Origin: Elusimicrobiaceae bacterium
GTDB lineage: Bacteria > Elusimicrobiota > Elusimicrobia > Elusimicrobiales > Elusimicrobiaceae
Reading direction: 5' to 3'
Length of the DNA: 64,000 nucleotides
Assembly: GCA_045129775.1 (NCBI GenBank)
Contig: JBGUOO010000041.1
Span: 1,545 to 65,544, forward strand
Under the pieces are notes generated by a model that was not told the origin of the DNA, searched no databases, and saw only the letters and a list, made by a program, of their open reading frames with translations. This document shows, piece by piece, positions 4,919 through 61,898 of this stretch; within the stretch, counting starts at the first letter, position 1; each line of letters begins with the position of its first letter. The translations under genes were made by a program, and so were the position numbers.

Positions 4919-4953
4919 AAAAATTCCCCGGCTTAATCAACCGGGGAATTTTT
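4919..4953. terminator. Bidirectional intrinsic terminator between proS and a convergent pilin gene
   Basis: AAAATTCCCCGG / CCGGGGAATTTT inverted repeat flanked by A/T runs. Confidence 0.8.
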
Positions 4954-5530
4954 AGTTATACTCCACAAAATAGTAATCATATTCGGAGTTATTGGTCGTT
5001 AATTTTTTACCGGATTCTTGCTCGCAAATTTTAGAATCCGGTGCTCCCAAATCTTTGGAATATGCACGACAAACAGTGTGCATAGAACCCGAAGAAGAAT
5101 GAGCAAAACGACGTACATAAGCCATATATGGCTCATTAGATTTAAACACAAAACAAACAGCCGCTTGCGTGTAACCAGCCCCGCTTATCAATTGACATTC
5201 CCCGCCATTAAACGTACACGTAGTGGTTGTACACGACATACCACCCGGCAAATCAATATCTAAGTTTCTAAAATCATCTGTATACGTGCCATTTGCCAAA
5301 TAATACACTTCCTCGGCCTCTTCCAATGTTTTGACAATAGATTTGATGGTAGCATAACGGCTTTTCCATACGGCTACTTGGTATTGTGGCACGGCTACCG
5401 CCGCCAAAATACCAATAATTAAAACAACTACTAAAAGCTCTATAAGCGTAAAACCTTGATGAGCCCCCCTTTTTGTCGGCAAGCCGACGTTTCCCCCGCA
5501 AGGGGGACAAATAACAGCATTATCTTTCAT
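4952..5530 (-). CDS. Type IV pilin (PilE-like), poly-T-promoter class, extended leader peptide
   Basis: G|FTLIELLVVVLIIGILAAVAVPQYQ prepilin motif; SD AGGAG before ATG 5530; in-frame upstream ATG at 5554. Confidence 0.92.
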   Translation of the reverse strand: MKDNAVICPPCGGNVGLPTKRGAHQGFTLIELLVVVLIIGILAAVAVPQYQVAVWKSRYATIKSIVKTLEEAEEVYYLANGTYTDDFRNLDIDLPGGMSCTTTTCTFNGGECQLISGAGYTQAAVCFVFKSNEPYMAYVRRFAHSSSGSMHTVCRAYSKDLGAPDSKICEQESGKKLTTNNSEYDYYFVEYN

Positions 5531-5560
5531 TTTAGTTTCTCCTGTGAACGACATACTAGG

Positions 5561-9544: not shown

Positions 9545-9574
9545 AAAGCGCACATTGTAAAATGTGCGCTTTTT
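9545..9574 (+). terminator. asnS intrinsic terminator
   Basis: AAAGCGCACATT / AATGTGCGCTTT followed by a T run. Confidence 0.85.
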
Positions 9575-9600
9575 TATTATACTATAGGTACAATTTGATC

Positions 9601-9882
9601 CTGTTTTTGGAACCGTACGAAGAATACGGGGTAGCTTGAAATTTCAAGCACCGCACTACTCCAAAGACAGCCGAAATTAAGACGCAAAATGAACGGATTA
9701 ATTACCCGGTTGTTTTGCGTCGAATGTTTGCCACGCAAGTGGTAAACTACGGCTGTTGTATGGAGTACCGTAGTGCGGACTCTTGTATAGTCAGCCGTTT
9801 TTGTTGGTTTCATAAGCAGAAAATTGAAAATGTAAGTCAGGTGTAAACCTGACAATATAAGGAGAAAAACTTATGAAATCAA
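9601..9882 (+). ncRNA. Structured pilin leader, copy A (candidate cis-regulatory RNA)
   Basis: P1 9601-9610/9661-9670; P2 CCGTA-CGAAGAA-TACGG; terminator 9749-9802; start-codon hairpin 9804-9816/9870-9882. Confidence 0.85.
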
Positions 9883-10487
9883 GAAATGTAAGCTTATTAG
9901 ACAACCCCTCACCACGGTGCTGGCGCACTCGTCCTCTCCCACAAGGGGCGAGGAGTATAACCCGCGGGTTTACCCTTATTGAGCTGTTAGTCGTCGTACT
10001 AATTATCGGAATTTTGGCCGCGGTGGCGGTGCCGCAGTATAAACAGGCCGTACTCAAAAGCCGTATGAGTACCATGATGGCCAACGTTAAAACTATCGTC
10101 AATGCACTGGAAGTATATTATTTAGCCCATGGAGAATATCCCAATGATGATGTGACAGCATTAGATATTGAAATCGGCAATTGTTCTTCCGTGGGTAATG
10201 GCACATTTAATTGTACCCACGAAAGCTATGATTACCAGGGGGAATCTTCAAACGCAGTAGGTGGTTTCTTAAAAAACAACAATGGCCTAGCTTATTTACA
10301 ATATCCTTTACATGATATGAATACTGCCAAACAAGGAACCCGTGAATGTTGGGCGGACATAAACAATACGGCAGCTAATAATGTATGCAAATCGTTAGGA
10401 GGCACCCCAAATGGTACCTCTAGCTGGCGAAAAGAAAAGAAACAGAATCATACCACGGGTAACTGGACCATTTATAAACTTCCCTAA
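9873..10487 (+). CDS. Type IV pilin (PilE-like) with a palindromic insertion in the leader peptide
   Basis: G|FTLIELLVVVLIIGILAAVAVPQYK; SD AAGGAG. Confidence 0.92.
   Translation: MKSRNVSLLDNPSPRCWRTRPLPQGARSITRGFTLIELLVVVLIIGILAAVAVPQYKQAVLKSRMSTMMANVKTIVNALEVYYLAHGEYPNDDVTALDIEIGNCSSVGNGTFNCTHESYDYQGESSNAVGGFLKNNNGLAYLQYPLHDMNTAKQGTRECWADINNTAANNVCKSLGGTPNGTSSWRKEKKQNHTTGNWTIYKLP
9905..9953. repeat. BoxC/REP-like palindrome, in-frame inside the prepilin leader
   Basis: Matches 48322-48370 except at 2 positions; encodes PSPRCWRTRPLPQGAR. Confidence 0.85.
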
Positions 10488-18740: not shown

Positions 18741-18869
18741 ATAAAACGGATCCCCCTGCCGCCCGCTACAACCCAGCGGGCGGTTTTTTGTCGGCCCCAG
18801 TATCAAAAGCCCAAATGCAAAATAAGAAGAAATTATGTAGAATGAGATGGTAGTAAATTAAAAATTGAA

Positions 18870-19109
18870 TTGTTTTTGGAACCGTATGTAGAATACGGAG
18901 GACTTTTGGAAACAAAAGTTTTATGCGAGTCCAAAAACAGCCGATTTAGGCACACAAAGGCGACGGCCCGCGTGTGCCGAATGTTTCCCGCACTTGTTGC
19001 GGGAACTACGGCTGTTCCCGTTGGGTTCACTCGCATAAACTCCGGTGGCGACAGCCGTTTTTGCATACACGTTTCCAAAAAAGAATAATAGGAAAAATGT
19101 ATGCAAAAA
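18870..19109 (+). ncRNA. Structured pilin leader, copy B
   Basis: P1 18870-18879/18931-18940; terminator 19008-19062; 12-bp start-codon hairpin 19058-19069/19098-19109. Confidence 0.85.
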
Positions 19110-19643
19110 AGAAATACCCGGCGGGGTTTTACGCTTATTGAGTTGTTAGTCGTTGTGCTTATTATTGGCATATTAGCCGCCGTAGCCGTGCCACAGTACC
19201 AAAAAGCCGTTTGGAAAAGCCGCTTTGCCACGATTAAAAACTTGGCCAAAAGTATTGCAAATGCCGAAGAAGTATATTATTTGGCTAACGGACAATATAC
19301 CAAAGATTGGGACGCGTTGGATATTGGGTTAGACAGCGCTACCTCCTGTACCAACGAAGAAGATGAACATAGTTACTGTTATTTTTCATGGGGATATTGC
19401 CGAATTAATAAAAATCTTACGCAAAACGAGTGTGATATATACCATAACGGCAATCCCATTTTAGGCTATAAATTGATGTTTAACAAGATAAACAGTAACG
19501 CGGCAGGCCAAGCACAGTGCTTTGCAAGGAGTTTCTCCAGCGCAGAAGATATACAAATTAAAATATGCCAAAGTGAAACAGGAAAACAGGAAAATGATTG
19601 GGGAAATATAACTACAGACTATATGGGTTGGAATTATCTTTAA
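19101..19643 (+). CDS. Type IV pilin (PilE-like)
   Basis: G|FTLIELLVVVLIIGILAAVAVPQYQKAV; Cys-containing variable C-terminus. Confidence 0.92.
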   Translation: MQKRNTRRGFTLIELLVVVLIIGILAAVAVPQYQKAVWKSRFATIKNLAKSIANAEEVYYLANGQYTKDWDALDIGLDSATSCTNEEDEHSYCYFSWGYCRINKNLTQNECDIYHNGNPILGYKLMFNKINSNAAGQAQCFARSFSSAEDIQIKICQSETGKQENDWGNITTDYMGWNYL

Positions 19644-23036: not shown

Positions 23037-23254
23037 CTGTTTTTGGAACCGTATAAAGAATACGGACTCTTTTGATAGCAAAAGTTTGATTCGCGTCCGA
23101 AAACAGCTGTTATAGGCACAAAATAGTGGAACTTATAATCCCACCGTTTTGTGCCGAGTGTTTATCGTTTTGCGATAGGCCACGGCTGTTATTGTAGGGA
23201 GTGCGAATCAACCCGGCAGTAGTGGCCGTTTTTAAATGCGTTTTTCAAAGACAG
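23037..23254 (+). ncRNA. Structured pilin leader, copy C
   Basis: P1 23037-23046/23097-23106; terminator 23182-23233 with several G-U pairs; downstream P1-complement 23244-23254. Confidence 0.85.
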
Positions 23255-23283
23255 AAATTACAAATTGCAAAGGAGAAAGTCTT

Positions 23284-23787
23284 ATGAAAAACGTAAAAAA
23301 ACAGGGTTTTACCCTTATAGAGTTGTTAGTAGTAGTGCTCATTATCGGTATTTTGGCCGCAGTAGCCGTGCCGCAATATAAACAAGCCGTACTGAAAGCT
23401 CACTTCATAAAAGTGTTTCAAATAGCTCAAAATATGAAAAAAACCGCAGACTTATATTATTTACAAAACGGCCAATATAAAGACGGCCTGCTCACCGAAT
23501 TAGATATTGACTATAAAAAGATATGTAAAGGAGATAATAACGCACTCAAATGCGAGAAAGGATTTGTAATTGACCCAAATCCCACCAATCTTTTTCTCTA
23601 TTATAGCCCAGATATTACTTTTTCCATGGGCTATGTAGCAGCTATGCAAACTTACGAAAATACCCCTAAACAAAACCGTTTTGCGATGCATATCTATTTT
23701 AACCATACGGCACTTTCCAATCAAATAGTTTGTGCTAGTTCAGGGAATGTATCCCTCTGTAAAAAAATGTTAAGTGGAATAAAATAG
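23284..23787 (+). CDS. Type IV pilin (PilE-like)
   Basis: G|FTLIELLVVVLIIGILAAVAVPQYK; SD AAGGAG before ATG 23284. Confidence 0.92.
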   Translation: MKNVKKQGFTLIELLVVVLIIGILAAVAVPQYKQAVLKAHFIKVFQIAQNMKKTADLYYLQNGQYKDGLLTELDIDYKKICKGDNNALKCEKGFVIDPNPTNLFLYYSPDITFSMGYVAAMQTYENTPKQNRFAMHIYFNHTALSNQIVCASSGNVSLCKKMLSGIK

Positions 23788-28341: not shown

Positions 28342-28788
28342 TTATAATGTATCCCGGCTGTTTAAAATGGTATAGGTAATTTTACAAGGCTGAGAAGCCC
28401 CTGCTACGCTTTCCATTTTAGCTTCTACCGTGTATGTAATATTATGTTGTTTGGAAATTTCTACATAACAAGTATGTTTTTGCTTTTTAGGGAATCCATT
28501 GGCATCATTGCCCGATTCGCACCCATAACCGGAATCCGTTGAAGAATCACACATTTGACAAGCCGCTAAATCCCGCGCATAGGCAACCGGCGTTTTAGTG
28601 GCCCAAATAGCGTTTACTTCCGCCATGCAAGACTCAATGACCGATTGCGCCATCATGGTGTGACGTGTTTGGCGGGAAGTAATCGTGCGGGAAAGAGACA
28701 ACCGCAAAATCATAGCAGACATACCGGCTAAAATAGCCGCTACAATCAATACCTGTAACAAAGCCGCACCCCGTTTATTTAACAACAT
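28342..28788 (-). CDS. Minor pilin, PilX/GspK-like
   Basis: RG|AALLQVLIV atypical prepilin motif lacking Glu5. Confidence 0.75.
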   Translation of the reverse strand: MLLNKRGAALLQVLIVAAILAGMSAMILRLSLSRTITSRQTRHTMMAQSVIESCMAEVNAIWATKTPVAYARDLAACQMCDSSTDSGYGCESGNDANGFPKKQKHTCYVEISKQHNITYTVEAKMESVAGASQPCKITYTILNSRDTL

Positions 28789-28802
28789 GGTATTTTCTCC
28801 CT

Positions 28803-29336
28803 TTAGCTGCCTACCGGCTTTATAGCAAAACCGTGCGGCAATATAATTGTTTCGTCCACAATTTCTTTAATGGCCGGGTTTGTATTCATCCCTACCACTA
28901 GTTGTATGTGCAAGATAGCCCCTACATTGTCACTTCCCCCAGCCGATTCGGTATAAAACGAAGGGGAAGCCCAAGAAGAAGTCCCGGATTGGACATAATT
29001 GAGTACTGTTTCGCCGTTACGGGTACAGGTAGCGTTGGCCTGGCAAGTGTATGAAATCTCAGATGTTATCTGATGATCCGGCCCCAACTTAGAGGTACCA
29101 CTTTGCCTTAACGTAATTCCCGTACCGCTTACACTGGCCGATTCCGATTCCCGGATATCTTGGCGAAGCTGACGTAAAAACAAAGAAACTTGGTTGCGCA
29201 ACATAAGCCGCACCCGGCCTACCCCGCTTTCACGCAAAGCGGCGGTGCTCAGGGCCGCCAACGCTACCCCGATAATCCCCACAATCATAACGGCCAGTAA
29301 AATTTCCGTTAATGTAAAACCTTTTTTATTCTTCAT
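28803..29336 (-). CDS. Minor pilin, PilW/GspJ-like
   Basis: KG|FTLTEILLAV. Confidence 0.8.
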   Translation of the reverse strand: MKNKKGFTLTEILLAVMIVGIIGVALAALSTAALRESGVGRVRLMLRNQVSLFLRQLRQDIRESESASVSGTGITLRQSGTSKLGPDHQITSEISYTCQANATCTRNGETVLNYVQSGTSSWASPSFYTESAGGSDNVGAILHIQLVVGMNTNPAIKEIVDETIILPHGFAIKPVGS

Positions 29337-29857
29337 AATTCATACCCGTTACATTTAATGGTAAAAGTAACTTTCAAAGTAGATGTTTCCGCGGAGGTGC
29401 CCGAACAATTATTACATAGCTTGGCTACACGGTTGTCACCACCTTCCCGGTGTTTGGTATAGTCCAAATTAGTAGCAAAGGAGTTCCCGCTACTTATTTT
29501 ATAAGAAAATGCACTTTGCGACGAAGAAGCATCGCAAATTTTTGGCAATAAGCATTTAATATTATGATCTGTTCCAGCCTGCAGTGGGTTGGAATCCCCC
29601 CCGCACAAACCATTGGCCAAACCGCTGGGAAGGCGTGCCTTGGCAAATGAATCATTATTGGTATTAATATAAATTTGCAGTTTATCTTTGGCTTTTTCAA
29701 CGGCCAGGGCCATTTCTTCGCGCATGTCGGGCTGGGTAGATTTACGCGCGGCCGACAGCAATACCCCAAATGCCCCGACGGTCACTACGGCCAAAAGCCC
29801 CAAGGCAATGATACCTTCCAATACGGTTACACCTTTTTTATTGTTTAAAATTTTCAT
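29333..29857 (-). CDS. Minor pilin, PilV/GspI-like
   Basis: KG|VTVLEGIIAL. Confidence 0.78.
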   Translation of the reverse strand: MKILNNKKGVTVLEGIIALGLLAVVTVGAFGVLLSAARKSTQPDMREEMALAVEKAKDKLQIYINTNNDSFAKARLPSGLANGLCGGDSNPLQAGTDHNIKCLLPKICDASSSQSAFSYKISSGNSFATNLDYTKHREGGDNRVAKLCNNCSGTSAETSTLKVTFTIKCNGYEL

Positions 29858-29872
29858 AATCAGTTCCTATGT

Positions 29873-30346
29873 TTAGTCGTCCTCGGTAATTGTCATATCC
29901 CGGTTGACAATAAAAGAACGGGCCGTTTCCGAGCCGGAAACATTTTCGGTCCCCGTTACAAAAACGCCGTCGGTGCGCGGGTCCGACACGGCAAACGTAT
30001 AAGGCAAATCTACAAACATTTTGGGCGAAATATATCCACATCCGAATACAACCGTTGCGCCCCCGCTACAACTGCCCGGAATCCCGGTTAACACTGAATG
30101 CCCCGCCGGACAAGTCACCCCGGATGCATCCGAGCCCGAAAAACTACCCGACGCTAAACAGCCTTTTGTGTCCGTATAAAAAGAGCGCACCGCCTCCGCT
30201 AGTTGCACGGCCGCCGCTTTGGCTTTTTGATAGCGCATTTCACGCCGTACAGACTTAATCAACGGCACCGCAAACGAAGCCACTACGGCAATGACTAACA
30301 ATACAGCTAAAATTTCCATTAACGTAAAACCTTGTTTATTTTTCAT
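29873..30346 (-). CDS. Pilin/pseudopilin
   Basis: QG|FTLMEILAV. Confidence 0.85.
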   Translation of the reverse strand: MKNKQGFTLMEILAVLLVIAVVASFAVPLIKSVRREMRYQKAKAAAVQLAEAVRSFYTDTKGCLASGSFSGSDASGVTCPAGHSVLTGIPGSCSGGATVVFGCGYISPKMFVDLPYTFAVSDPRTDGVFVTGTENVSGSETARSFIVNRDMTITEDD

Positions 30347-30354
30347 AACAATTC

Positions 30355-30846
30355 CTAATTTGGGGTTTTATCAAAACCATCCCCGTTGATTTTTGTACAA
30401 TACGTAAATCCGTCATTGGCACGGCCTTTTCCCTCAAAACATACCCTCACGTTATCTTTGCCGGCGCTTGTAAACCACATATCTACCGAACCGGTACGAG
30501 TGCCGTCGGTATTTTTGGTATCGTACGCCACTTGACGGTATTCCAAAAACCCGCAATCCACCAAATTCTGCACAGCGCCGGGACTCGTAAAACACTTATC
30601 GCGCGGTACCAACAACACAGGTATTTTATTGCTTGACCCGGTTGGGAAAGAGGCAGCACCCGGATATTCCGTATAATAGCGTTGCGCGGCACTTACCAGT
30701 AATAGCGCACGGGACTTAGCATCTTCAATGCGAATATCCGAGGCCGATGCACGGAACGCCTGCGTGGCAAACATGGCCAGTACCCCAATTAAAGCCGCCG
30801 CAATTAACAATTCCATTAACGTAAAACCTTTGTGATTGGCTATCAT
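30355..30846 (-). CDS. Pilin/pseudopilin
   Basis: KG|FTLMELLIAA. Confidence 0.85.
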   Translation of the reverse strand: MIANHKGFTLMELLIAAALIGVLAMFATQAFRASASDIRIEDAKSRALLLVSAAQRYYTEYPGAASFPTGSSNKIPVLLVPRDKCFTSPGAVQNLVDCGFLEYRQVAYDTKNTDGTRTGSVDMWFTSAGKDNVRVCFEGKGRANDGFTYCTKINGDGFDKTPN

Positions 30847-30859
30847 ATATACACCCCGG

Positions 30860-31453
30860 TTATTTACAATCCGTCCCTTTTAAGCGCTCTACACTGCCTT
30901 CTTCCAACATAACCGCCCCTAAATAACAATCTTTTTTAGTACCCGATTTAAGCATACAACCAATCGGCTTTTTAGCACTATTGGTGGGCGATTTACATTG
31001 TTTGACAGCGGCGCTAGTAGAAGTTCCGTTTAATAAGTAAAAACTATACCCTTTGGTATTGGTTAAGGGTTTTAAATATTCAAACTCCGTCAGCGCCCAT
31101 ATAAAAGCTTTGCGTGTATTAGCGTCCGTCCCTTGAGACACTACATATTGATTCCAAGATTGCTTTTTTTCTGCGGTGGTACTGGGGGCCTTGGTTGCCC
31201 AGTTTGTCCCTCCATATTGGATATATGAACCACTGGTAGGCACGGTTGTAATGGACACCCCGGTATTCAGTTTTAAATCCCGCTTTAAGGAGTTAACCGC
31301 ATTACCCAGCGCCAACAGATTACCCAAAGCAGCATGATAATCCCCGCGTTCCTGCATGCGCTTATACGCCGGCACGGCAAATGCAAGCACGCCCCCGGCA
31401 ATGAGCACTACAAACAATACTTCCACTAACGTAAAACCGTATTTCCTACGCAT
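30860..31453 (-). CDS. Pilin/pseudopilin
   Basis: YG|FTLVEVLFVV. Confidence 0.85.
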   Translation of the reverse strand: MRRKYGFTLVEVLFVVLIAGGVLAFAVPAYKRMQERGDYHAALGNLLALGNAVNSLKRDLKLNTGVSITTVPTSGSYIQYGGTNWATKAPSTTAEKKQSWNQYVVSQGTDANTRKAFIWALTEFEYLKPLTNTKGYSFYLLNGTSTSAAVKQCKSPTNSAKKPIGCMLKSGTKKDCYLGAVMLEEGSVERLKGTDCK

Positions 31454-31535
31454 ACAAACTCCTTTGGCACTTACTTAAGTATGGGCCAAAAACAGGCATT
31501 TGTCAAGGGAATTTCCCCTTGTATTTTCCACCCCT

Positions 31536-32756
31536 TTAACCGCCGATTTGAGACAGTTTGAAAATAGGTAAGAAAATAGATGCCACAATAATACCGATCA
31601 GCACACCGACCCCAACAATTAAAATTGGGTCAATAACCGCGGAGAAACGGGCAATAAACTGGTCCACGTTATCGGCATAGAATTTTGCCAATGTTTGAAT
31701 AATGCTGGGCAACTTACCAGATTCTTCACCCATTCTCATCATTTCGGTCATTAGGCCGGGGAAGACCCCCGTTGCCGCAAACGAATCCGAAATGGCCTTA
31801 CCGGCCGCTACGTCCGCACGTACTTGCTTAAGCGCGTTTTGGATAATGACGTTACCGTCAAATGATTCTTCCAGTACGCCTAAAGCATTTAAAATGGTTA
31901 CACCACTGCGTAGCAACGTAGCCATGGTAGAAAGCAAGCGGTCATAGTAAATGTTCTTCAAAAAATTACCGAAAATCGGCATGGTCAGCAAGAACGAATG
32001 CCAGCGTTTGCGGCCGTTGGGAGTGCGAATGTAAAAACGGAACGCAAAGAACAACCCCACCATGGTTAAAATAAGGGCTACCGCATGGTTGGTAATGGCA
32101 CTGGATACTTTTAACACAATAATGGTTAAAAGCGGTAAGGTTAAGTTGAAGTCTTCAAAAATTTGTGCAAACGTAGGCACGATACCCACAATAAAGTAAA
32201 TCAACACGCCCACAGACGCTATACACAAAATGGTCGGGTAGGTAATGGCCGTAATGATTTTGCTTTTCATCCCTTCCTGGGTTTTGGTATAGATAGACAA
32301 CTGCATCAGCGTATCGGCAATTTGCCCGCCAACTTCCCCCGCCTGTACGAGCGACAGCCACACATGGCTAAATGTGCGGGGATGCTGGGCCAACGCCTCG
32401 TGCAAAGATTGACCGCCCGAAATATCGTGCGTTACTTGCATAAGTACCATACCTAACGTCGGGTTAGAAGAATACTGCCCCAACAGGGATACGGCACGCA
32501 CTAACGGCACACCCCCGGCAATCAGGGTGGAAAGTTGTTCGGCAAAAAATGCGAGCACATGCCCCGGTACTTTACCCCCGCGTTTACGGGTGGTCTGCTT
32601 AGAAGAAAAGAGTCCCCCCGTCGCTTCTGTAATATCCAGTACCAAATAACCCTTGTTTTGCAAGGCGGCACGCAAACGGTCTTTACTGTCCGTTGTATAA
32701 GACCCGGTAAAGGTCTTTCCCTGTTCATCTCTTACTTTATATGTATATTTAGGCAT
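31536..32756 (-). CDS. pilC: Type IV pilus/T2SS inner-membrane platform protein (PilC/GspF)
   Basis: QLSTLIAGGVPL, GEVGGQI, YPTIL, GEESGKL, IFLPIF. Confidence 0.93.
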   Translation of the reverse strand: MPKYTYKVRDEQGKTFTGSYTTDSKDRLRAALQNKGYLVLDITEATGGLFSSKQTTRKRGGKVPGHVLAFFAEQLSTLIAGGVPLVRAVSLLGQYSSNPTLGMVLMQVTHDISGGQSLHEALAQHPRTFSHVWLSLVQAGEVGGQIADTLMQLSIYTKTQEGMKSKIITAITYPTILCIASVGVLIYFIVGIVPTFAQIFEDFNLTLPLLTIIVLKVSSAITNHAVALILTMVGLFFAFRFYIRTPNGRKRWHSFLLTMPIFGNFLKNIYYDRLLSTMATLLRSGVTILNALGVLEESFDGNVIIQNALKQVRADVAAGKAISDSFAATGVFPGLMTEMMRMGEESGKLPSIIQTLAKFYADNVDQFIARFSAVIDPILIVGVGVLIGIIVASIFLPIFKLSQIGG

Positions 32757-32780
32757 ATTTTCATCCTTTGCAAACTAATT

Positions 32781-34517
32781 TTATTCGTCGGAAGTTGTAA
32801 TACTTAAAATCTCATCAATCGTCGTCAAGCCACGCACCACTTTATGCCAACCGTTAGCACGCAGATTGAGCGCCCCCGAAGCATTGGCCGCCTTTTTCAA
32901 GGCCACCAAATCTTGCGTTTTATAGATAATATTACGCATTTCTTCCGTCATACGATACACTTCGTAAATAGCACGCCGGCCACTAAAACCGGTGCCAAAA
33001 CATTTGGGGCAACCTACCGCTTTAAAGAAGGTCCAGGCGTTTTGGTCGCGCGGGTTGAGGTGCCCTTCCCGAATGATACGTTCTAAAGAAGCAGAATCGG
33101 GCATATGGGGCACTTTGCAATAGGGACACAAAATACGTACCAAACGCTGGGCCGCCACAAGCGCCATAGAGCTGGCCAATAAGAACGGTTCCATCCCCAT
33201 ATCAATTAAACGCGGAATAGCCCCTAACGCTTCGTTGGTGTGTAAGGTGGAAAGCACTAAGTGACCCGTTAAAGCCGCTTTTAAGCACGCTTCGGCAGTT
33301 TCGTTATCGCGGACCTCCCCTACCAGGATGACGTCCGGGTCCTGACGTAAGAAGGAACGCAACCCCGCCGCAAAGGTAAGCCCGATGGCGGGTTTTACCT
33401 GCACTTGGCTGATACCGGCCAATTTGTATTCTACCGGGTCTTCCAAGGTCATAAAGTTGAGCTCGCTGGTACGGATAGAGGTAAGCACCGCGTTTAACGT
33501 AGTAGATTTACCCGAACCGGTAGGCCCTGTTAAGAAAATCAGGCCGTGGGGCAAGTTGGCGGCTTCCAAGAAAGCTTTTTTCTGGGCCGGTTCAAAACCC
33601 AGTTTATCAATATTCATTTCACCGGTACCTTTATCCAAAATACGAAGCACCAGTTTTTCCCCATATACGGCCGGGCAGACAGACACACGGACCTCAATGG
33701 AGCGGTTTTGATAACGAATGGTAAAACTGCCGTCTTGCGGTAAACGCTTTTCGGCAATATCCAATTTTGACAAAATTTTAATACGGGAAATAATAGCATT
33801 TACCGCATCTTTAGCAGGCGCCGTGCGTTCATACAACGAACCGTCAATACGGAAACGCAAACTTACACGTTCGTCAAATAGTTCCAAGTGAATATCACTG
33901 GTACGCTCGGAAATGGCTTGACGTAAAATAGCGTTTACTTGCTTGACATATTGCGATGCATTGGGGTTCATGCGATCCAGGTCCAACACGCCGGTTACTT
34001 CTACTTCTTCGTCGCTGGCGGCTTGGGCGGCCGGGTCCACCGCTTGCATTGTTTCGTTCATGACTTCTTCCAATAAGTTTTTATTGGAATAAAAAGCGTC
34101 AATAACCCCTAATAACTGTGACTTGCTGGTGATGAACGGCTGCACTTGCTTGCCGGACATCATTTTGATATTTTCAATTAAAAACAGGTTGGTAGGGTCT
34201 AACAGGGCAATAGCGAGGGAGTCGTCTTCCATAAACAATGGAACGACCATGTTTTCACGCGCAAACTTTTCGGAAATAATTTCTTGTAAATTTTGCTCCC
34301 GTTCTGGTACTAAAATACCGTTCTCACGGGAAGCATATGGAATAGCAAAATGTTTGGAAAGAGCAATTGTTACCTGTTCTTCGGTAGCAAAACCAAAGCG
34401 CAAAATAGCTTCGGCAATAGAGATATTGTTTTGCTTGGCGTAAAGCTGAGCTTGTTTATCTTGCTCGGCTGTAATTTTCCCTTGTTCGACTAAAATTTCA
34501 TTTAACTGTTTGGCCAT
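32781..34517 (-). CDS. pilB: Type IV pilus assembly ATPase (PilB/GspE)
   Basis: LDIAEKRLPQDG, TGPTGSGKSTTL Walker A, LRQDPDVILVGEVRD, TGHLVLSTLH, CxxC...CxxC; N-terminal MshEN/GSPE-N-like region. Confidence 0.95.
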   Translation of the reverse strand: MAKQLNEILVEQGKITAEQDKQAQLYAKQNNISIAEAILRFGFATEEQVTIALSKHFAIPYASRENGILVPEREQNLQEIISEKFARENMVVPLFMEDDSLAIALLDPTNLFLIENIKMMSGKQVQPFITSKSQLLGVIDAFYSNKNLLEEVMNETMQAVDPAAQAASDEEVEVTGVLDLDRMNPNASQYVKQVNAILRQAISERTSDIHLELFDERVSLRFRIDGSLYERTAPAKDAVNAIISRIKILSKLDIAEKRLPQDGSFTIRYQNRSIEVRVSVCPAVYGEKLVLRILDKGTGEMNIDKLGFEPAQKKAFLEAANLPHGLIFLTGPTGSGKSTTLNAVLTSIRTSELNFMTLEDPVEYKLAGISQVQVKPAIGLTFAAGLRSFLRQDPDVILVGEVRDNETAEACLKAALTGHLVLSTLHTNEALGAIPRLIDMGMEPFLLASSMALVAAQRLVRILCPYCKVPHMPDSASLERIIREGHLNPRDQNAWTFFKAVGCPKCFGTGFSGRRAIYEVYRMTEEMRNIIYKTQDLVALKKAANASGALNLRANGWHKVVRGLTTIDEILSITTSDE

Positions 34518-34593
34518 ATAAACCCTATTACAACCGCCTTATAGCGTACATACCTGCCCCCAGGGAACTGGGGGCAGGTAAAAACTCTCACAC

Positions 34594-36207
34594 TTATTCC
34601 GCCAAAATAGTCGGCGTGATAAAGATGACTAAGTCCGTCGTGCTCTTGGATTTAGAGCGGCTGGTAAACAACCAACCTAACAGCGGGATGTCCCCAAGCA
34701 GCGGTACTTTGCGCGTTTGATCCGTTTCGCGCGAAGTGAGTAAGCCGCCGATGACAACCGTTTGTCCGTTTTTCACACGCACCAGCGTAGAAGCGGCACG
34801 CGTGATGGTATCCAAAGCAAAGTCAAACCCCGAAGCTACTACATCGGAATACGTAGGTTGTATGTACAAGGTTACGTAGCCTTCGCGGTTGACTTGCGGG
34901 GTTACCTGCAAGGTCAAACCCACCCGTTTACGTTCGGCGGATGTAGTAGTCGTCGCCGTAGCAGTTGTGCTGCCGGAATCGGTTACCGTACGGCCTACGG
35001 TAGCATCCGTAGAGGTGGTAATCGTTGCGGTTTTGTTGTTGAGCGTTACTACTTTGGGTTTACCCAAGTATTTGGCTTCCCCGCGGGTTAACAACGCTTT
35101 GAGGACAATGTTAAATGCGTTAAGGTTGAGTACCCCGGCTTGGTTATCGCTGTTACCGGTGGTAGTGGTAGTCGTCGTCCCGCCGGAAGAGGAAGAACTT
35201 TCGTTTTCCAATTCTTTGGAGCTGGGGAAGATCCAATCCCAACCGTGTAATTTTTGGCTACCATCGTACGTTTTACCATGGAAAAATTCCGAAGTGAGCG
35301 TACGGGAAGGAGCCGTTATCTGCGCCAGTGTACCGTCAGAACCACCATATTCAAACCCAAGGCTTAAACCGCTGGTCTTGCTGACTTCCACAATTTGCGC
35401 TTCAATTAAAATCTGCGGAGGCTTGATATCCAATTCCGCTAAGATGTTTTCCACTTGCGGAAATACTTCCGGCACGTCTGTAATAATCAATTTGTTCGTG
35501 CGCGGGTCAACGGCAATTTTACCCACAGGGGATAACATGCTGCCCACAATGCCCGTAATCGTAGAGCCGGTAGCATACGAATCGCCACCGCCCATACGCA
35601 GATTGTTGGTCATGCCAGATGAATCATAAGAGGTAGACCCACTGGAAAAACCACCGGAGGAATTCCCAGTAGACACATCTTGCGGCATAATGCTGTTCAG
35701 TTCGTTTTGCGCAGAGCCTACCCCTTGCAACGAGATATAGCTAAGCGTATAAATTTTGGTAATCGTGTCCGGCGCATCATTGGAACGCTTGGTTACGACA
35801 TAGCTGTCACTCTTACCAATGCGTTGGTACGCCAACCCATGTACCCGAAGCAGGGTATCTAACGCTTCACGCACCGTTACGCGCGTAAGCGAGGCGGTCA
35901 CTTTCTTATTCGCGAATTCTTCGCTCATAATAAAGTTAATCTTGGCCTGGGTAGTAATACTGTTTAAGAACGCCGATATCGGCACATTCGCTACCCGAAT
36001 GGACACTTTTCTGTCTAAGGGAGAAGAAGTTTCCACTTCCTTATACAGGTCCGTAGCGGTGGACGGAGCAGCTGTTACTTTCACGTCCTCCGTTAAAGCA
36101 ATGGCACCATCACTGGGAATCATTTGGCGTTCCTGCTGGGCAACTGCCGGAACCGTAATCCCCAACGTGACAATACCTGCCAACATTACTGCTAAACGAT
36201 TTGTCAT
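34594..36207 (-). CDS. Secretin (PilQ/GspD family)
   Basis: DPRTNKLIITD, QILIEAQIVEV, VTPQVN, TVVIGGL, KVPLLGDIPLLGWLF. Confidence 0.93.
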   Translation of the reverse strand: MTNRLAVMLAGIVTLGITVPAVAQQERQMIPSDGAIALTEDVKVTAAPSTATDLYKEVETSSPLDRKVSIRVANVPISAFLNSITTQAKINFIMSEEFANKKVTASLTRVTVREALDTLLRVHGLAYQRIGKSDSYVVTKRSNDAPDTITKIYTLSYISLQGVGSAQNELNSIMPQDVSTGNSSGGFSSGSTSYDSSGMTNNLRMGGGDSYATGSTITGIVGSMLSPVGKIAVDPRTNKLIITDVPEVFPQVENILAELDIKPPQILIEAQIVEVSKTSGLSLGFEYGGSDGTLAQITAPSRTLTSEFFHGKTYDGSQKLHGWDWIFPSSKELENESSSSSGGTTTTTTTGNSDNQAGVLNLNAFNIVLKALLTRGEAKYLGKPKVVTLNNKTATITTSTDATVGRTVTDSGSTTATATTTTSAERKRVGLTLQVTPQVNREGYVTLYIQPTYSDVVASGFDFALDTITRAASTLVRVKNGQTVVIGGLLTSRETDQTRKVPLLGDIPLLGWLFTSRSKSKSTTDLVIFITPTILAE

Positions 36208-44062: not shown

Positions 44063-44303
44063 CTGTTTTTGGAACCGTACGAAGAATACGGCTTACTTTT
44101 GGAATACCAAAAGTTTGCGCAACGCCAAAGACAGCTGTTTGAGGCATGGAGTAGGTGGAATTGCAAGCCAACTATTTCATGCTTAGTGTTTGCTATCCGC
44201 AAGGATAGCAAGCCGCGGCTGTTATATGTGGGAAAGGTTGCGCAATTCCAGGTATGATAGCCGTATTTTTCGGTTTCTCCAAAAACAGCAAAAAGGAGAA
44301 ATC
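44063..44303 (+). ncRNA. Structured pilin leader, copy D
   Basis: P1 44063-44072/44125-44134; terminator 44215-44270; SD hairpin 44272-44280/44295-44303 overlapping TCCAAAAACAG. Confidence 0.85.
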
Positions 44304-44305
44304 AA

Positions 44306-44824
44306 ATGAAAAAAGTAGTAAGAGGTTTCACCCTCATTGAGTTGTTAGTTGTTGTTCTCATCATCGGCATATTAGCCGCAGTGGCCGTGCCGCAATATAA
44401 AATGGCCGCCGACAAATCCCGCCTTGCTAATCTGCGTTCAATGGCAAGTGCAGTAGCAAAAGCCCAAGAAGCCTATTATTTGGCTAATGGTACATATACC
44501 CGTAACTGGGAGGAACTGGCCATCTCTTTCCCGGGGAAATTAGGTAGTACCAGTGTTCAGAATAATGTCCTTTCATCAAATGAAGGCTGGATACTTACAC
44601 TTGGATCATATAACAATGTTACAGCAACAAATTCTCACCTTCCGGATATTACAATACATCATTTTTATCCCCACCACCCGGGTGCTCGATACCAAAACAA
44701 ACAGGCCTGCTATGCCTTAGCTACCAATTTGTACGCCGACAAATTATGTAAAAGCTTGTCCTCAAAAAACACATGGGACACTCAAGCAGGCTATGGCAAA
44801 GACAATGTTTACATATTAGACTAA
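44306..44824 (+). CDS. Type IV pilin (PilE-like)
   Basis: G|FTLIELLVVVLIIGILAAVAVPQYK; SD AAGGAG. Confidence 0.92.
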   Translation: MKKVVRGFTLIELLVVVLIIGILAAVAVPQYKMAADKSRLANLRSMASAVAKAQEAYYLANGTYTRNWEELAISFPGKLGSTSVQNNVLSSNEGWILTLGSYNNVTATNSHLPDITIHHFYPHHPGARYQNKQACYALATNLYADKLCKSLSSKNTWDTQAGYGKDNVYILD

Positions 44825-48216: not shown

Positions 48217-48246
48217 TTTATTTTCTCCTGTGAATGCCATAACAGG

Positions 48247-54418: not shown

Positions 54419-54664
54419 CTGTTTTTGGAACTATATGTAGAATATAGAGCGCTTTGGAAGAAACCAAGCACAAAGAAAGTCCAAAAATAGTCGTTAAAAG
54501 GCACGAACGGGTCTCGAGCCCCGCTCGTGCCGAATGTTTCCCTTTTTGCCTAGGCAAAAAGGGAGATTACGGCTGTTTTGCGGGGTTACTTTCTTTGGCT
54601 CTGTATTCCAGCCGTTTTGCATATACTCCAAAAGCAGATATGAAGGAGAAAAGTATATGCAAAA
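54419..54664 (+). ncRNA. Structured pilin leader, copy E
   Basis: P1 54419-54428/54481-54490; P2 with two compensated pairs CTATA/TATAG; terminator 54569-54618; 12-bp start-codon hairpin 54615-54626/54653-54664. Confidence 0.85.
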
Positions 54665-55355
54665 CAAAAATCAAAAGTTGTTTCCTGTCCCCCTTGCAGG
54701 ATGCTTAGCGCACAATGTCGCTTTTACCTCGCCCCTTGTGGGAGAGGATGCCCGCAGGGCAGGTGAGGGGTTAGCCGTTATAGGTCAGACACTTCCTAAC
54801 AGTGTCCCGGTTAAGGGGCATACAGCCGCATTCACCTTAATTGAGCTCTTAGTGGTTGTGCTTATTATCGGCATATTAACGGCGGTAGCCGTCCCGCAAT
54901 ACCAAAAAGCCGTCTGGAAAAGCCGCTATGCCACTATCAAAAATCTAACCAAAAGTTTAGCTGATGCCGAGGGAGTATATTATTTGGCTAATGGGAGCTA
55001 TACCCTCGATATCAGCAAGCTAGACCTAAATATGCCGACGCCTACTTCTTCGGATTCAAATGATCGGTATAGTGTCTTTTATTACCCTTGGGGATTTTGT
55101 GCATTAGAAATAGTAGAAAATACAACAGCAGATGTTCAATGTATATTAAAAGATGAACATCTTTCAACAGATTATTATGACCAACGGTTCCTTGGTTATT
55201 TTACCTATTTTAGCCATTCCAACCGTCTCCCCGGGCAAACTACTTGTGTGTCGTATGGACCGCATACCGCTCTACCTTATATGATTTGTAAAAGTGAAAC
55301 CGGACTATCCGAACCTTCTTACACGCATACCAATTACCTACGTTGGTATTATTAG
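54657..55355 (+). CDS. Type IV pilin (PilE-like) with a palindromic insertion in the leader peptide
   Basis: A|FTLIELLVVVLIIGILTAVAVPQYQKAV; SD AAGGAG before ATG 54657. Confidence 0.92.
   Translation: MQNKNQKLFPVPLAGCLAHNVAFTSPLVGEDARRAGEGLAVIGQTLPNSVPVKGHTAAFTLIELLVVVLIIGILTAVAVPQYQKAVWKSRYATIKNLTKSLADAEGVYYLANGSYTLDISKLDLNMPTPTSSDSNDRYSVFYYPWGFCALEIVENTTADVQCILKDEHLSTDYYDQRFLGYFTYFSHSNRLPGQTTCVSYGPHTALPYMICKSETGLSEPSYTHTNYLRWYY
54727..54770. repeat. BoxC/REP-like palindrome (inverted), in-frame in the prepilin leader
   Basis: Reverse complement CCCCTCACC...CCTCTCCCACAAGGGGCGAGG shares both ends with 9905-9953; encodes SPLVGEDARRAGEG. Confidence 0.8.
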
Positions 55356-61164: not shown

Positions 61165-61350
61165 CTATTTTTGAACCGTATGTGGAATACGGGAATGCTT
61201 CGCAAGGAGCTTCGGACAAGCCAAAAATAGCCGCTTGAGGCACAACAAGGAACGCGTCTTTGTTGTGCCGAATGTTTCCTATTTTTAAATAGGAAACTAC
61301 GGCTATTTATGGGGTTTTCCTTGTCCGAAGCCCGGTAAACAGCCGTTTTT
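61165..61350 (+). ncRNA. Structured pilin leader, copy F
   Basis: P1 CTATTTTTG 61165-61173 / CAAAAATAG 61222-61230 (compensated A-T pair); terminator 61299-61350. Confidence 0.85.
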
Positions 61351-61394: not shown

Positions 61395-61898
61395 ATGAAA
61401 AATAAACAAGCGTTTACGCTGATTGAGTTATTAGTAGTGGTGTTAATTATCGGCATATTGGCGGCGGTAGCCGTGCCACAGTACCGAGTAGCTGTTCGCA
61501 AAGCAGATTTGTCGCGCTATATGGCTTTGGTAAGCGCCGTTTATGAAGCACAACAAGTTTATTATCTTGCTCATGGAAAATATTCTAATAAACTTACAAA
61601 TTTGGATATATCTATGCCCATTACAGAGGAATGTACTCTTTCTACAACCAAAGACAGTGAAGATACCTACTATTGTAACTCTGCAAAGATGGGAATATCT
61701 GATTTAGGAACTAGTATCCAGGCGGGTTCTGATGAAATTCGATATGTAAAATTTTTACAAGACCGAACTGCACATGAAATTACTTTTAAACAAGGAACCA
61801 CCTACTGTTTTGCAAAAGGTGATATTTCCAAAAAAGCATGCCAAGCGTTCGGCGGCAACTTCTTAGGTGAAGCTACGTGGGCCTATTATCAACTGTAA
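61395..61898 (+). CDS. Type IV pilin (PilE-like)
   Basis: A|FTLIELLVVVLIIGILAAVAVPQYR; SD AAGGA. Confidence 0.92.
   Translation: MKNKQAFTLIELLVVVLIIGILAAVAVPQYRVAVRKADLSRYMALVSAVYEAQQVYYLAHGKYSNKLTNLDISMPITEECTLSTTKDSEDTYYCNSAKMGISDLGTSIQAGSDEIRYVKFLQDRTAHEITFKQGTTYCFAKGDISKKACQAFGGNFLGEATWAYYQL

What the first reader, a model, noticed from the sequence alone, without database searches (positions are those of the whole stretch)
9601..9802. Six-copy structured RNA leader upstream of stand-alone pilin genes (candidate novel riboswitch/attenuator family)
Seen: the same ~185-200 nt element precedes all six + strand pilins, starting at 9601, 18870, 23037, 44063, 54419 and 61165. Its order is P1-5' (YTRTTTTTGG)-AA-P2 (5 bp, 7-nt loop YRWRGAA)-variable P3 hairpin-P1-3' (CCRAARAYAG)-P4 (mostly GGCAC..GTGCC)-KARTG-P5 hairpin-CGGCTRT..RGCCGT-T run. 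Sequence and stem lengths vary but pairing is kept. P2 is CCGTA/TACGG in five copies and CTATA/TATAG in copy E. P1 is CTGT/ACAG, changing to CTAT/ATAG in copy F. P4 is GACGC/GCGTC in copy A. Non-Watson-Crick positions in P1 and in the C and D terminator stems are mostly G-U on the sense strand, which points to selection on RNA and not on DNA. A -10-like hexamer (TATACT, TACAAT, TAAAAT, TAGAAT, TATAAT) lies just upstream of each copy. Inference: a cis-acting RNA regulon controls the pilin repertoire. It does not match the riboswitch consensuses I know (c-di-GMP-I/II, c-di-AMP, T-box, purine, TPP, SAM, cobalamin). Known cyclic-dinucleotide riboswitches do control pilins in other bacteria, so a signalling ligand is plausible but unproven.
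Basis: partly seen in the sequence, partly recalled or inferred. Interest (0 to 1): 0.95.

Follow-up and report, generated by a model that had tools for sequence, protein, structure and literature searches.

The report
Switch-like leader RNA before pilin genes
Each of the six pilin genes is preceded by a copy of an undescribed 205-nt folded leader RNA (102 copies in this 1.5 Mb gut Elusimicrobia genome) that can fold either into a transcription stop signal or into a competing read-through shape; what flips it is unknown.

Summary
The six copies belong to a family with 102 copies in this genome. All of them point the same way as a type IV pilin gene that starts 27-65 nt downstream. The family is confined to Elusimicrobiota (Elusimicrobiaceae and an Endomicrobia-like family) and has no Rfam match.

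Covariation is strong: about 95% of cells are paired and 44-49 of 58 pairs show compensatory changes, in two separate alignments. G.U outnumbers A.C 11-13 to 1, so the structure belongs to the sense RNA.

Two mutually exclusive folds are conserved:
- Terminator state: the P1-P2-P3 three-way junction plus a terminator hairpin and a U-run.
- Antiterminator state: ACAGCCG pairs with CGGCUGU, and a copy-specific 9-10 bp helix (X:X') joins the P3/P1 junction to the terminator loop.

The two states are nearly equal in energy. Before the terminator's 3' arm is made, the antiterminator is favoured by about 7.5 kcal/mol.

The closest known architecture is the zipper-type attenuator of plasmid pLS20.

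The P4 loop carries a self-complementary 4-6 nt palindrome in about 90% of copies, laid out like the HIV-1 dimerisation loop, which suggests RNA-RNA kissing. In other genomes the leader also precedes restriction-modification, lipopolysaccharide and outer-membrane genes.

A small-molecule riboswitch is possible but poorly supported. The trigger remains unknown.

The parts
9595..9809 (+). Leader copy A (whole element, covariance-model match)
   Evidence: 165.9 bits; sub-features
18864..19069 (+). Leader copy B. X is at 18920-18930 and X' at 19029-19039 (11 bp).
   Evidence: 184.5 bits
23031..23240 (+). Leader copy C. X is at 23086-23094 and X' at 23203-23211. The P4 loop palindrome TTATAA is at 23133-23138.
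   Evidence: 163.5 bits
44057..44275 (+). Leader copy D. X is at 44115-44123 and X' at 44237-44245. The P4 loop palindrome TTGCAA is at 44161-44166.
   Evidence: 182.8 bits
54413..54626 (+). Leader copy E. X is at 54471-54480 and X' at 54588-54597. The P4 loop palindrome CTCGAG is at 54513-54518.
   Evidence: 161.2 bits
61159..61357 (+). Leader copy F. X is at 61209-61220 and X' at 61320-61331 (12 bp). The P4 apex palindrome ACGCGT is at 61252-61257.
   Evidence: 174.1 bits
9578..9583 (+). Copy A: -10-like TATACT, with TTGTAA 17 nt upstream. A second -10-like hexamer, TACAAT, lies at 9589-9594. The transcription start site is not mapped.
   Evidence: upstream logo. Consensus match only.
9601..9611 (+). 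Copy A P1 5' strand, CTGTTTTTGGA. It acts as the anti-antiterminator strand.
9613..9629 (+). Copy A P2 hairpin, with a GNR(N)A-type loop (GAAGA). The loop is a GAAA tetraloop in the Endomicrobia-like family.
   Evidence: all 6 pairs covary
9635..9648 (+). Copy A P3, a variable hairpin
9651..9659 (+). Copy A X (J3/1), CCGCACTAC. This copy-specific strand pairs with X'.
9661..9673 (+). Copy A P1 3' strand plus CCG (CCAAAGACAGCCG). It pairs either with P1-5' or with the terminator 5' arm.
9681..9721 (+). Copy A P4 long hairpin. The 9-nt apical loop ATTAATTAC (9697-9705) holds the palindromes ATTAAT and TAATTA.
9726..9747 (+). Copy A P5 hairpin, preceded by the conserved J4/5 sequence GAAT (9722-9725)
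9749..9757 (+). Copy A terminator 5' arm, which is also the antiterminator 3' strand (ACGGCTGTT)
9770..9778 (+). Copy A X' (GTAGTGCGG), in the apical loop of the terminator hairpin. It is flanked by stem 7 (9763-9767 and 9779-9783).
9790..9803 (+). Copy A terminator 3' arm (GTCAGCCGT) and U-run
9804..9884 (+). Copy A post-terminator hairpin. It buries the Shine-Dalgarno sequence (SD; AGGAG, 9860-9864) and the start codon (9873).
   Evidence: -23.7 kcal/mol here; family mean z = -3.4
9873..10487 (+). Pilin gene downstream of copy A (204 aa, PF07963 N_methyl)
19101..19643 (+). Pilin gene downstream of copy B
23236..23787 (+). Pilin ORF downstream of copy C. The likely start codon is at 23284.
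44306..44824 (+). Pilin gene downstream of copy D
54534..55355 (+). Pilin ORF downstream of copy E. Its listed start lies inside the leader; the likely real start is near 54657, giving a long prepilin leader peptide.
61395..61898 (+). Pilin gene downstream of copy F

Best explanation
The element is a cis-acting 5' leader RNA of about 205 nt. It belongs to a new family restricted to Elusimicrobiota and works as a terminator/antiterminator ('zipper-type') transcription attenuator.

Shown from sequence:
1. The RNA has two mutually exclusive, conserved folds.
2. In the terminator state, P1 (CUGUUUUUGG/CCAAAAACAG) closes a three-way junction with P2 and P3. P4 and P5 are separate hairpins. ACGGCUGUU...AACAGCCGU forms a terminator followed by UUUUU.
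3. In the antiterminator state, the P1 3' strand and the three bases after it (ACAGCCG) pair with the terminator 5' arm (CGGCUGU). The helix is extended outward by CC:GG and by a copy-specific 9-10 bp helix between the P3/P1 junction (X) and the terminator loop (X').

Inferred:
1. P1 acts as an anti-antiterminator.
2. While the polymerase has not yet made the terminator 3' arm, the antiterminator is the favoured fold, so read-through is the default.
3. Anything that holds P1 and the three-way junction together causes termination 30-55 nt before the start codon. That could be a protein, an RNA contact, docking of the GNRA-like P2 loop, or fast transcription.
4. A second hairpin after the terminator covers the Shine-Dalgarno (SD) sequence and the start codon, which would add translational control.

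The physiological trigger is not identified.
For: Family size and placement:
- 102 copies, all co-oriented with a pilin ORF that starts 27-65 nt downstream.

Structure:
- About 95% of cells paired, with 49/58 and 44/58 pairs showing compensatory changes, in two alignments; slid controls give 38-49%.
- G.U versus A.C is 11-13:1, so the fold is on the sense strand.

The switch:
- The antiterminator core is 97% paired. The CCG after P1 is conserved although it is unpaired in the terminator state.
- X:X' has an own-copy Watson-Crick run of mean 9.6 (>=7 in 112 of 113 copies), against 3.95 for non-self pairs. It is 7-11 bp (8-11 in 61) in all 62 copies from other MAGs.
- Constrained folding gives E(T) = -82.1 and E(AT) = -80.1 kcal/mol, a difference of -2.1 +/- 4.1. 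The minimum-free-energy (MFE) fold equals one of the two states in 93 of 113 copies.
- Before the terminator 3' arm is made, the antiterminator is favoured by 7.5 +/- 4.0 kcal/mol in 107 of 112 copies.
- X:X' stability is tuned: the spread of energies is 2.94, against 3.73 +/- 0.24 for random 10-mers, and 0 of 300 random sets were as narrow.

Second layer:
- The post-terminator hairpin over SD/ATG has mean z = -3.4, and z < -1.5 in 82% of copies.

Precedent:
- The architecture and the near-equal energies match the experimentally studied zipper-type attenuator cATTpLS20 (PMC13401043).
Against: - There are no transcript data.
- P1, the terminator stem and the antiterminator core are nearly invariant in sequence. 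Their support comes from conservation, G.U tolerance and a few double changes, not from rich covariation.
- X:X' could instead be a pseudoknot that coexists with the terminator state. Covariation cannot tell a cis antiterminator helix from a pseudoknot or from pairing in trans.
- The energy calculations ignore tertiary contacts and folding kinetics.
- No regulator or ligand was identified.
Confidence: 0.75

Rival explanations
1. It is a small-molecule riboswitch. A metabolite or signalling nucleotide (for example a cyclic dinucleotide) binds one of the two three-way junctions and shifts the terminator/antiterminator balance.
For: - It has a junction-plus-expression-platform layout.
- The few conserved unpaired bases (UA before P4, G-A-R-Y between P4 and P5, YA after P5) cluster at the junction formed in the antiterminator state. 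That could be a binding pocket.
- Pilins are under c-di-GMP riboswitch control in Clostridioides difficile (PMC6366702, listed).
Against: - The junctions of P1-P2-P3 are hypervariable or only 'AA'.
- Only about 10 unpaired bases are conserved.
- No known riboswitch model matches at E<=10.
- Downstream genes are heterogeneous, with no shared substrate: pilins, restriction-modification (R-M) methylases, GmrSD, lipopolysaccharide (LPS) transferases and outer-membrane proteins (OMPs).
- About 100 copies per cell would be a large sink for a ligand.
Confidence: 0.2
2. It is an attenuator gated by RNA-RNA contact. Leader transcripts touch each other through the self-complementary P4 loop, and possibly through X/X' in trans. 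The outcome would then depend on the concentration of leader RNA from the same gene or the same loop class.
For: - The P4 apical loop holds a palindrome of at least 4 nt in 134 of 143 copies, and a 6-nt palindrome in 99 of 143, against 4.8% in shuffled loops. This was replicated in 54 of 62 copies.
- About 20 different palindromes occur, so what is kept is self-complementarity, not sequence.
- The commonest layout is 2 + 6 + 1 nt in a 9-nt loop, as in the HIV-1 dimerisation initiation site (from my own knowledge).
- There is no second copy of the palindrome in the same leader: 0.015 per copy.
- No two of the 102 X sequences are identical, and no cross-pairing reaches 8 bp.
Against: - The commonest palindrome, UAAUUA, would make a weak kiss.
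- P4 is not part of the alternative pairing, so there is no direct route from kissing to termination.
- X divergence is at saturation, like other free stem positions, once an independent clock is used. The 'barcode' may therefore be neutral drift.
- There are no dimer data.
Confidence: 0.2
3. It is a stand-alone small RNA gene with its own promoter and terminator that merely sits upstream of pilin genes and does not control them in cis.
For: - It has its own -10-like hexamers and a strong terminator.
- Terminated leaders could accumulate as about 200-nt RNAs.
Against: - The orientation and the 27-65 nt spacing to the downstream start codon are fixed in about 100 copies.
- There is no room for a separate promoter, and none is conserved in the 30-55 nt spacer.
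- A conserved antiterminator alternative that disables the terminator has no purpose in a stand-alone sRNA.
Confidence: 0.07
4. It is a DNA-level repeat: a REP or MITE-like element, a recombination or inversion site (X and X' as inverted repeats), or a palindromic protein-binding site.
For: - It is multi-copy and dispersed.
- X and X' are inverted repeats about 110 bp apart.
- The P4 loop palindromes look like restriction or operator sites.
Against: - G.U outnumbers A.C 11-13:1, so the pairing exists on one strand only.
- Every copy is co-oriented with its gene, irrespective of the upstream gene.
- No copy was found with the X-to-X' segment inverted among more than 200 copies.
- X and the palindromes differ between copies, which does not fit a site-specific recombinase or a single repressor.
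- All paralogues are old: the minimum pilin divergence is 27%.
Confidence: 0.03

Closest known systems
Zipper-type transcriptional attenuator cATTpLS20, in the leader of the Bacillus subtilis plasmid pLS20 conjugation operon (PMC13401043)
   Same: - Stable central stem-loop(s) are flanked by an upstream weaker structure and a downstream intrinsic terminator.
- The 3' arm of the upstream structure is complementary to the 5' arm AND the loop of the terminator, so the central helix can zip outward into an antiterminator.
- The two conformations have similar calculated free energies.
- The antiterminator is the default.
- The trigger is unknown; those authors propose a protein that stabilises the upstream stem, or an antisense RNA.
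   Different: - Similarity to cATTpLS20 was not tested here.
- Here the upstream structure is a three-way junction and the centre is two hairpins (P4, P5).
- It is chromosomal, with up to about 100 copies per genome, in Elusimicrobiota, in front of single pilin, surface or defence genes rather than one conjugation operon that begins with conAn1.
- It carries a palindromic loop and a hypervariable long-range helix.
c-di-GMP-II riboswitch Cdi2_4 upstream of pilA1 in Clostridioides difficile (PMC6366702, PMC6200980)
   Same: A structured 5' leader with an intrinsic terminator that controls a type IV pilin gene.
   Different: - No match to the c-di-GMP-I or c-di-GMP-II covariance models at E<=10.
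- There is no conserved ligand pocket.
- It is multi-copy.
- In related genomes the family also precedes non-pilin genes.
T-box leaders
   Same: - Long (more than 200 nt) terminator/antiterminator leaders.
- Many copies per genome.
- A copy-specific short sequence sits inside an otherwise conserved scaffold.
   Different: - In T-boxes the variable specifier pairs with a tRNA in trans. Here the variable strand X pairs with X' in the same leader.
- There is no T-box model match.
- The downstream genes are not amino-acid related.
HIV-1 dimerisation initiation site, and the palindromic kissing loops of multimeric bacterial RNAs (OLE, ROOL, GOLLD). This comparison is from my own knowledge.
   Same: A hairpin loop of about 9 nt with a central self-complementary hexamer flanked by 2 + 1 unpaired bases. 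Palindromy is kept while the sequence varies.
   Different: - The context is a bacterial mRNA leader.
- Most palindromes are A/U-rich.
- Dimerisation has not been shown.

Membership tests
Any Rfam 15 family (including c-di-GMP-I/II, c-di-AMP, T-box, purine, TPP, SAM, cobalamin) | A covariance-model match at or above the gathering score | tested here: not met
   The whole window at gathering score gives two tRNAs only. At E<=10, no hit overlaps a copy on the sense strand. Copies A and B searched alone with lax filters give nothing, or miRNA-hairpin noise on the minus strand.
Intrinsic-terminator attenuator / riboswitch expression platform | A G+C-rich stem followed directly by a U-run, upstream of and co-oriented with the regulated ORF | tested here: met
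   ACGGCUGUU/AACAGCCGU plus UUUUU is present: 93-95% paired and seen in the individual folds. It lies 27-65 nt before the ORF in about 100 copies.
Intrinsic-terminator attenuator / riboswitch expression platform | A conserved alternative pairing that sequesters the terminator 5' arm | tested here: met
   ACAGCCG:CGGCUGU is 97% paired. X:X' extends it. The two folds are nearly equal in energy.
Intrinsic-terminator attenuator / riboswitch expression platform | Both terminated and read-through transcripts are observed | not testable with these tools
Zipper-type attenuator (cATTpLS20) | The 3' arm of the upstream structure is complementary to the 5' arm and loop of the terminator, extending a central stem-loop into an antiterminator | tested here: met
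   P1-3' plus X is complementary to T-5' plus the terminator loop X', and together they enclose P4 and P5. The family is defined in PMC13401043.
Zipper-type attenuator (cATTpLS20) | Similar free energies of the two conformations, with the antiterminator as the default | tested here: met
   The energy difference is -2.1 +/- 4.1 kcal/mol. The antiterminator is favoured by 7.5 kcal/mol before the 3' arm is made. This is calculation only.
Zipper-type attenuator (cATTpLS20) | Homology to the pLS20-family leaders, or a position ahead of conAn1 and a conjugation operon | tested here: not met
   The downstream genes are pilins and surface or defence genes. Sequence similarity to cATTpLS20 itself was not tested. 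The resemblance is in mechanism, not in family membership.
Small-molecule riboswitch aptamer (generic) | A set of highly conserved unpaired junction nucleotides that form a pocket | tested here: inconclusive
   The P1-P2-P3 junctions are variable apart from 'AA'. About 8 semi-conserved bases lie at the junction of the antiterminator helix with P4 and P5.
DIS-type kissing-loop dimerisation element | A hairpin loop with a central self-complementary 4-6-mer flanked by unpaired bases; palindromy is conserved while the sequence varies | tested here: met
   134 of 143 and 54 of 62 loops qualify. A 6-nt palindrome occurs in 69%, against 4.8% in shuffled loops. The commonest layout is 2 + 6 + 1.
DIS-type kissing-loop dimerisation element | Physical dimer formation | not testable with these tools
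   This needs native gels, SEC or cryo-EM.
REP / MITE-like DNA repeat or invertible element | Occurrence in either orientation relative to genes, and pairing that is symmetric between the two strands | tested here: not met
   All copies are co-oriented with the downstream gene. G.U versus A.C is 11-13:1. No inverted variants were found.
Control by a specialised NusG paralogue (RfaH/UpxY/LoaP-type) | A second NusG-family gene in genomes that carry the element | tested here: not met
   PF02357 gives one match in almost every genome sampled in the phylum, two in two genomes, with or without the element.

The most novel reading that the evidence does not exclude
The leaders recognise one another. 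The HIV-DIS-like palindromic P4 loop brings leader transcripts together. The copy-specific X and X' strands are both exposed in the terminated fold, so an accumulated terminated leader could pair in trans with the nascent transcript of the same gene. That would block its antiterminator and shut the gene off. The result would be gene-by-gene RNA feedback, or mutual exclusion, across about 100 pilin paralogues: an RNA-barcode system for choosing which pilins are expressed.
Probability: 0.1. Interest if true: 0.95.

Novelty: new variant of a known kind. Interest (0 to 1): 0.8.

Why it matters
- This is a well-supported, apparently undescribed cis-regulatory RNA family. It is absent from Rfam 15, and nothing turned up in four full-text searches.
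- It has more copies in one genome than any cis-regulatory leader I know of: 102 copies in 1.5 Mb, about 1.4% of the DNA.
- It governs about half of an extraordinary repertoire of roughly 200 pilin-like genes in a gut Elusimicrobia bacterium.
- In related genomes it precedes restriction-modification, lipopolysaccharide-modification and outer-membrane genes. These are the gene classes that other bacteria vary by phase variation. The family may therefore be how this poorly studied phylum controls its surface and its phage defence.
- It would extend the recently described zipper-type attenuator principle to another phylum and to chromosomal genes.
- More than 200 natural sequence variants are in hand, which gives a rich test bed for co-transcriptional RNA switching and possible RNA-RNA kissing.

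Tried and rejected
1. Faster evolution of X than of other free stem positions. This appeared when leader distance was used as the clock, but that test was circular. With pilin protein distance as an independent clock, all variable positions are saturated and every paralogue is old. Rejected.
2. A cross-pairing network between X of one copy and X' of another. The maximum run is 7, and the distribution equals the parallel-orientation control. Rejected.
3. A specialised NusG paralogue as regulator. There is one NusG match in almost every genome sampled. Rejected.
4. A leader peptide starting at the 'GAATG' between P4 and P5. The ATG is not conserved (J4/5 is GAGT, GAAT, GAGC and so on), and the frames differ between copies. 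Rejected.
5. Inversion between X and X'. No inverted copies were seen. Rejected.
6. The mean run is 8.06 against 7.49 in shuffles. Only a tail of copies stands out: 16 of 78 have a run of at least 10, against 4.4% expected. This is weak and applies to a subset only.
7. A trans locus carrying the conserved strands elsewhere in the genome. Only a handful of scattered matches lie outside the leaders, with no shared locus.
8. A second intramolecular partner for the P4 palindrome. None was found.
9. A degenerate pattern scan of 185,579 genomes. It gave many chance hits outside the phylum. None of these was confirmed by the covariance model; the confirmed ones are labelled Elusimicrobia or Endomicrobia, bar one labelled Spirochaetes.
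10. Public RNA-seq.
Full report
**1. The observation**

MAFFT aligns them with 60% mean column identity and long invariant blocks. A covariance model built from them scores each at 161-185 bits. The P1 5' strands start at 9601, 18870, 23037, 44063, 54419 and 61165. The one after copy A matches PF07963.

**2. Scale**

A profile of the six copies finds 102 copies in the window's own 1.51 Mb draft genome at E<1e-8.
- Every copy with an assembled downstream region is co-oriented with a pilin-like ORF. The gap is typically 27-65 nt, with four outliers at 10-170 nt.
- The distance from the U-run to the start codon has a median of 44 nt.
- Upstream genes lie in either orientation, so the element belongs to the downstream gene.
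- The genome holds about 197 pilin-type N-termini. About 95 of them have the leader and about 102 do not, and some of the latter sit at contig ends.
- The type IV pilus/T2SS machinery operon in the window has no leader. It comprises the secretin (34594-36207), the ATPase (32781-34517), the platform protein (31536-32756) and pseudopilins, all on the minus strand.

**3. Distribution**

The model finds the family in 20 of 25 genomes of the same genus.
- With a 113-sequence model it is found in 97 of 301 genomes sampled across the phylum. These comprise nearly all of genus g1 and genus g12 of the same family, plus five genera of a second, distant family (f15).
- It is not found in the other families of the same order.
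- Copy number ranges from 1-7 in most genomes to 28, at least 45, and 102.
- Record titles name Elusimicrobiaceae, Elusimicrobium and Candidatus Avelusimicrobium from gut and rumen. Weaker matches are in Candidatus Ruminimicrobiellum and Endomicrobia.
- Pattern hits in other phyla were chance. The model confirmed none of them, apart from one MAG labelled Spirochaetes.

**4. It is an RNA structure on the sense strand**

- On 113 copies, 94.7% of cells form standard pairs, against 81.1% in shuffles and 38-48% when partners are slid. Compensatory changes occur at 49 of 58 pairs.
- An independent set of 62 copies from about 35 other MAGs gives 94.6% and 44 of 58.
- P2, P3, P4, P5 and the inner terminator stem covary at every pair.
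- G.U outnumbers A.C 759:69 and 425:33. The opposite strand could not form these helices.
- No Rfam 15 family matches, even at E<=10 on single copies.
- Four full-text searches found no description of the family.

**5. Two mutually exclusive folds**

RNAalifold and single-sequence folding return two structures.

*Terminator state.*
- P1 (CUGUUUUUGG/CCAAAAACAG) closes a three-way junction with P2 and P3.
- P4 and P5 are free hairpins.
- ACGGCUGUU pairs with AACAGCCGU and is followed by UUUUU.

*Antiterminator state.*
- ACAGCCG (the end of the P1 3' strand plus three more bases) pairs with CGGCUGU, the terminator 5' arm. This core is 97% paired.
- The CCG is conserved although it has no partner in the terminator state.
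- The helix continues outward through CC:GG (73% paired, not covarying) and through X:X'.

*The X:X' helix.* The 9-10 nt between P3 and the P1 3' strand (X) are perfectly Watson-Crick complementary to the apical loop of the terminator hairpin (X').
- The own-copy run averages 9.6 and is at least 7 in 112 of 113 copies. Non-self pairs average 3.95.
- The run is 7-11 bp (8-11 in 61) in all 62 copies from other MAGs.
- X is close to random in sequence. No two of the 102 copies share it.
- Orthologues in different species keep it: L004 and L031:14692 both read CCAGAGCAAGT.

*Energies.*
- Constrained folding gives -82.1 kcal/mol for the terminator state and -80.1 for the antiterminator state, a difference of -2.1 +/- 4.1. 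The unconstrained MFE fold equals one of the two states in 93 of 113 copies.
- For transcripts cut just before the terminator 3' arm, the antiterminator is favoured by 7.5 +/- 4.0 kcal/mol in 107 of 112 copies.
- X:X' stability is more uniform than chance: the spread is 2.94, against 3.73 +/- 0.24, with 0 of 300 random sets as narrow. This is what a balanced switch would need.

**6. A second layer**

The spacer after the U-run folds into a hairpin that includes the Shine-Dalgarno sequence and the start codon. Mean z is -3.4 against shuffles, and z is below -1.5 in 82% of copies. Examples are GCAU...AUGC and UUUCAU...AUGAAA.

**7. The P4 loop**

- The apical loop of P4 is most often 9 nt long. 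It contains a self-complementary sequence of at least 4 nt in 134 of 143 copies. It contains a hexamer in 99 of 143, against 4.8% in shuffled loops. This was replicated in 54 of 62 copies.
- About 20 different palindromes occur, including TAATTA, GATC, TTGCAA, TTCGAA, TTATAA, TCATGA and AGCT.
- The commonest layout is 2 + 6 + 1.
- There is no second copy of the palindrome in the same leader. The only partner is therefore the same loop of another molecule.
- This layout matches retroviral dimerisation loops (from my own knowledge) and suggests RNA-RNA kissing. Its link to termination is unknown.
- The P2 loop is GNRGA in this family and GAAA in f15. That fits a GNRA-type tertiary contact better than a sequence-specific protein site.

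**8. What is controlled**

In this genome the downstream genes are pilins only. Elsewhere they also include:
- EcoRI-type, N6/N4 and type III DNA methyltransferases
- GmrSD (twice)
- HSDR_N proteins
- a NERD-UvrD helicase and an SNF2 helicase
- a dynamin-like GTPase
- an OMP beta-barrel
- a zinc-ribbon/bPH protein
- a heptosyltransferase and a sulfatase-type (PEtn-transferase-like) enzyme.

From N-terminal sequence only, with no Pfam scan: GT2 and GT8 glycosyltransferases, an acyltransferase and a thermonuclease.

The common theme is cell surface and defence, not one metabolic pathway.

**9. Mechanism**

The best reading is a zipper-type attenuator, as recently shown for the pLS20 conjugation leader (PMC13401043). 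In that system:
- central stem-loops are flanked by an upstream structure and a terminator;
- the 3' arm of the upstream structure is complementary to the 5' arm and the loop of the terminator;
- the two folds are nearly equal in energy;
- the antiterminator forms by default.

Here P1 would be the anti-antiterminator. A factor that stabilises the three-way junction would turn the gene off. These steps are inferred, not shown. The trigger is unknown.

What can be said about the trigger:
- A specialised NusG paralogue is excluded.
- A small ligand is not excluded, but it lacks a conserved pocket in P1-P2-P3.
- RNA-RNA contact through P4 and X/X' is the most novel option that remains open.

**10. 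Limits**

- Alignments made by the model lean towards its own structure. The alignment-free tests do not share that bias.
- The energies ignore kinetics and tertiary structure.
- Earlier AI notes from this scan describe the same family in other genomes. They are not independent evidence.

Noticed in passing
whole genome (window = C41:1545-65544); window examples at 4952-5554(-) and 47593-48240(-): The 1.5 Mb genome encodes about 197 pilin-type N-termini. About half of them lack the leader, so there are at least two regulatory classes of pilin gene.
   Followed up: partly
window 9885-9975, and many downstream ORFs listed: Many prepilins have unusually long N-terminal leader peptides built from recurring motifs (NPSPRCWRTRPLPQGAR, VVSCPPCGENV...SPSIGPADHFLRKGGR, FTSPLEGEDARRAGEG). 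These look like a repeat element inserted in frame, in different frames or orientations.
   Followed up: no
window 9545-9572, and the upstream regions of other copies: One promoter class shares a conserved upstream unit: a hairpin terminator (GCGCACATTGTAAAATGTGCGC) + T-run + TATACT + ATAGGTACAATTT. A second class has TGTAGAAT about 25 nt further upstream. The cassettes therefore carry their own insulating terminator.
   Followed up: partly
window 28342-36207 (-): A type IV pilus/T2SS machinery operon (secretin, GspE/PilB ATPase, GspF/PilC platform, N_methyl pseudopilins) has no leader element.
   Followed up: partly
L101-L110 (genome G099): In another MAG, many contigs end within 100-250 nt after a leader copy. 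Assemblies apparently break at the repeated pilin N-terminal coding sequence, so copy numbers in MAGs are probably underestimates.
   Followed up: no
window 54536-54567: In copy E the apex of P5 also holds a palindrome (GCCUAGGC). This was not examined across the family.
   Followed up: no
post-terminator spacers, e.g. window 44272-44290 (CTCCAAAAACAGC): A subset of spacers carries a further CCAAAAACAG-like motif complementary to the P1 5' strand: 16 of 78 copies have a run of at least 10 nt, against 4.4% expected. It overlaps the 5' arm of the SD hairpin and could couple read-through to opening of the ribosome-binding site.
   Followed up: partly
window 41298-43925 (-): An 875-aa protein combines a Wzy_C O-antigen-ligase-like domain with TPR repeats. 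It is divergent from leader copy D.
   Followed up: no
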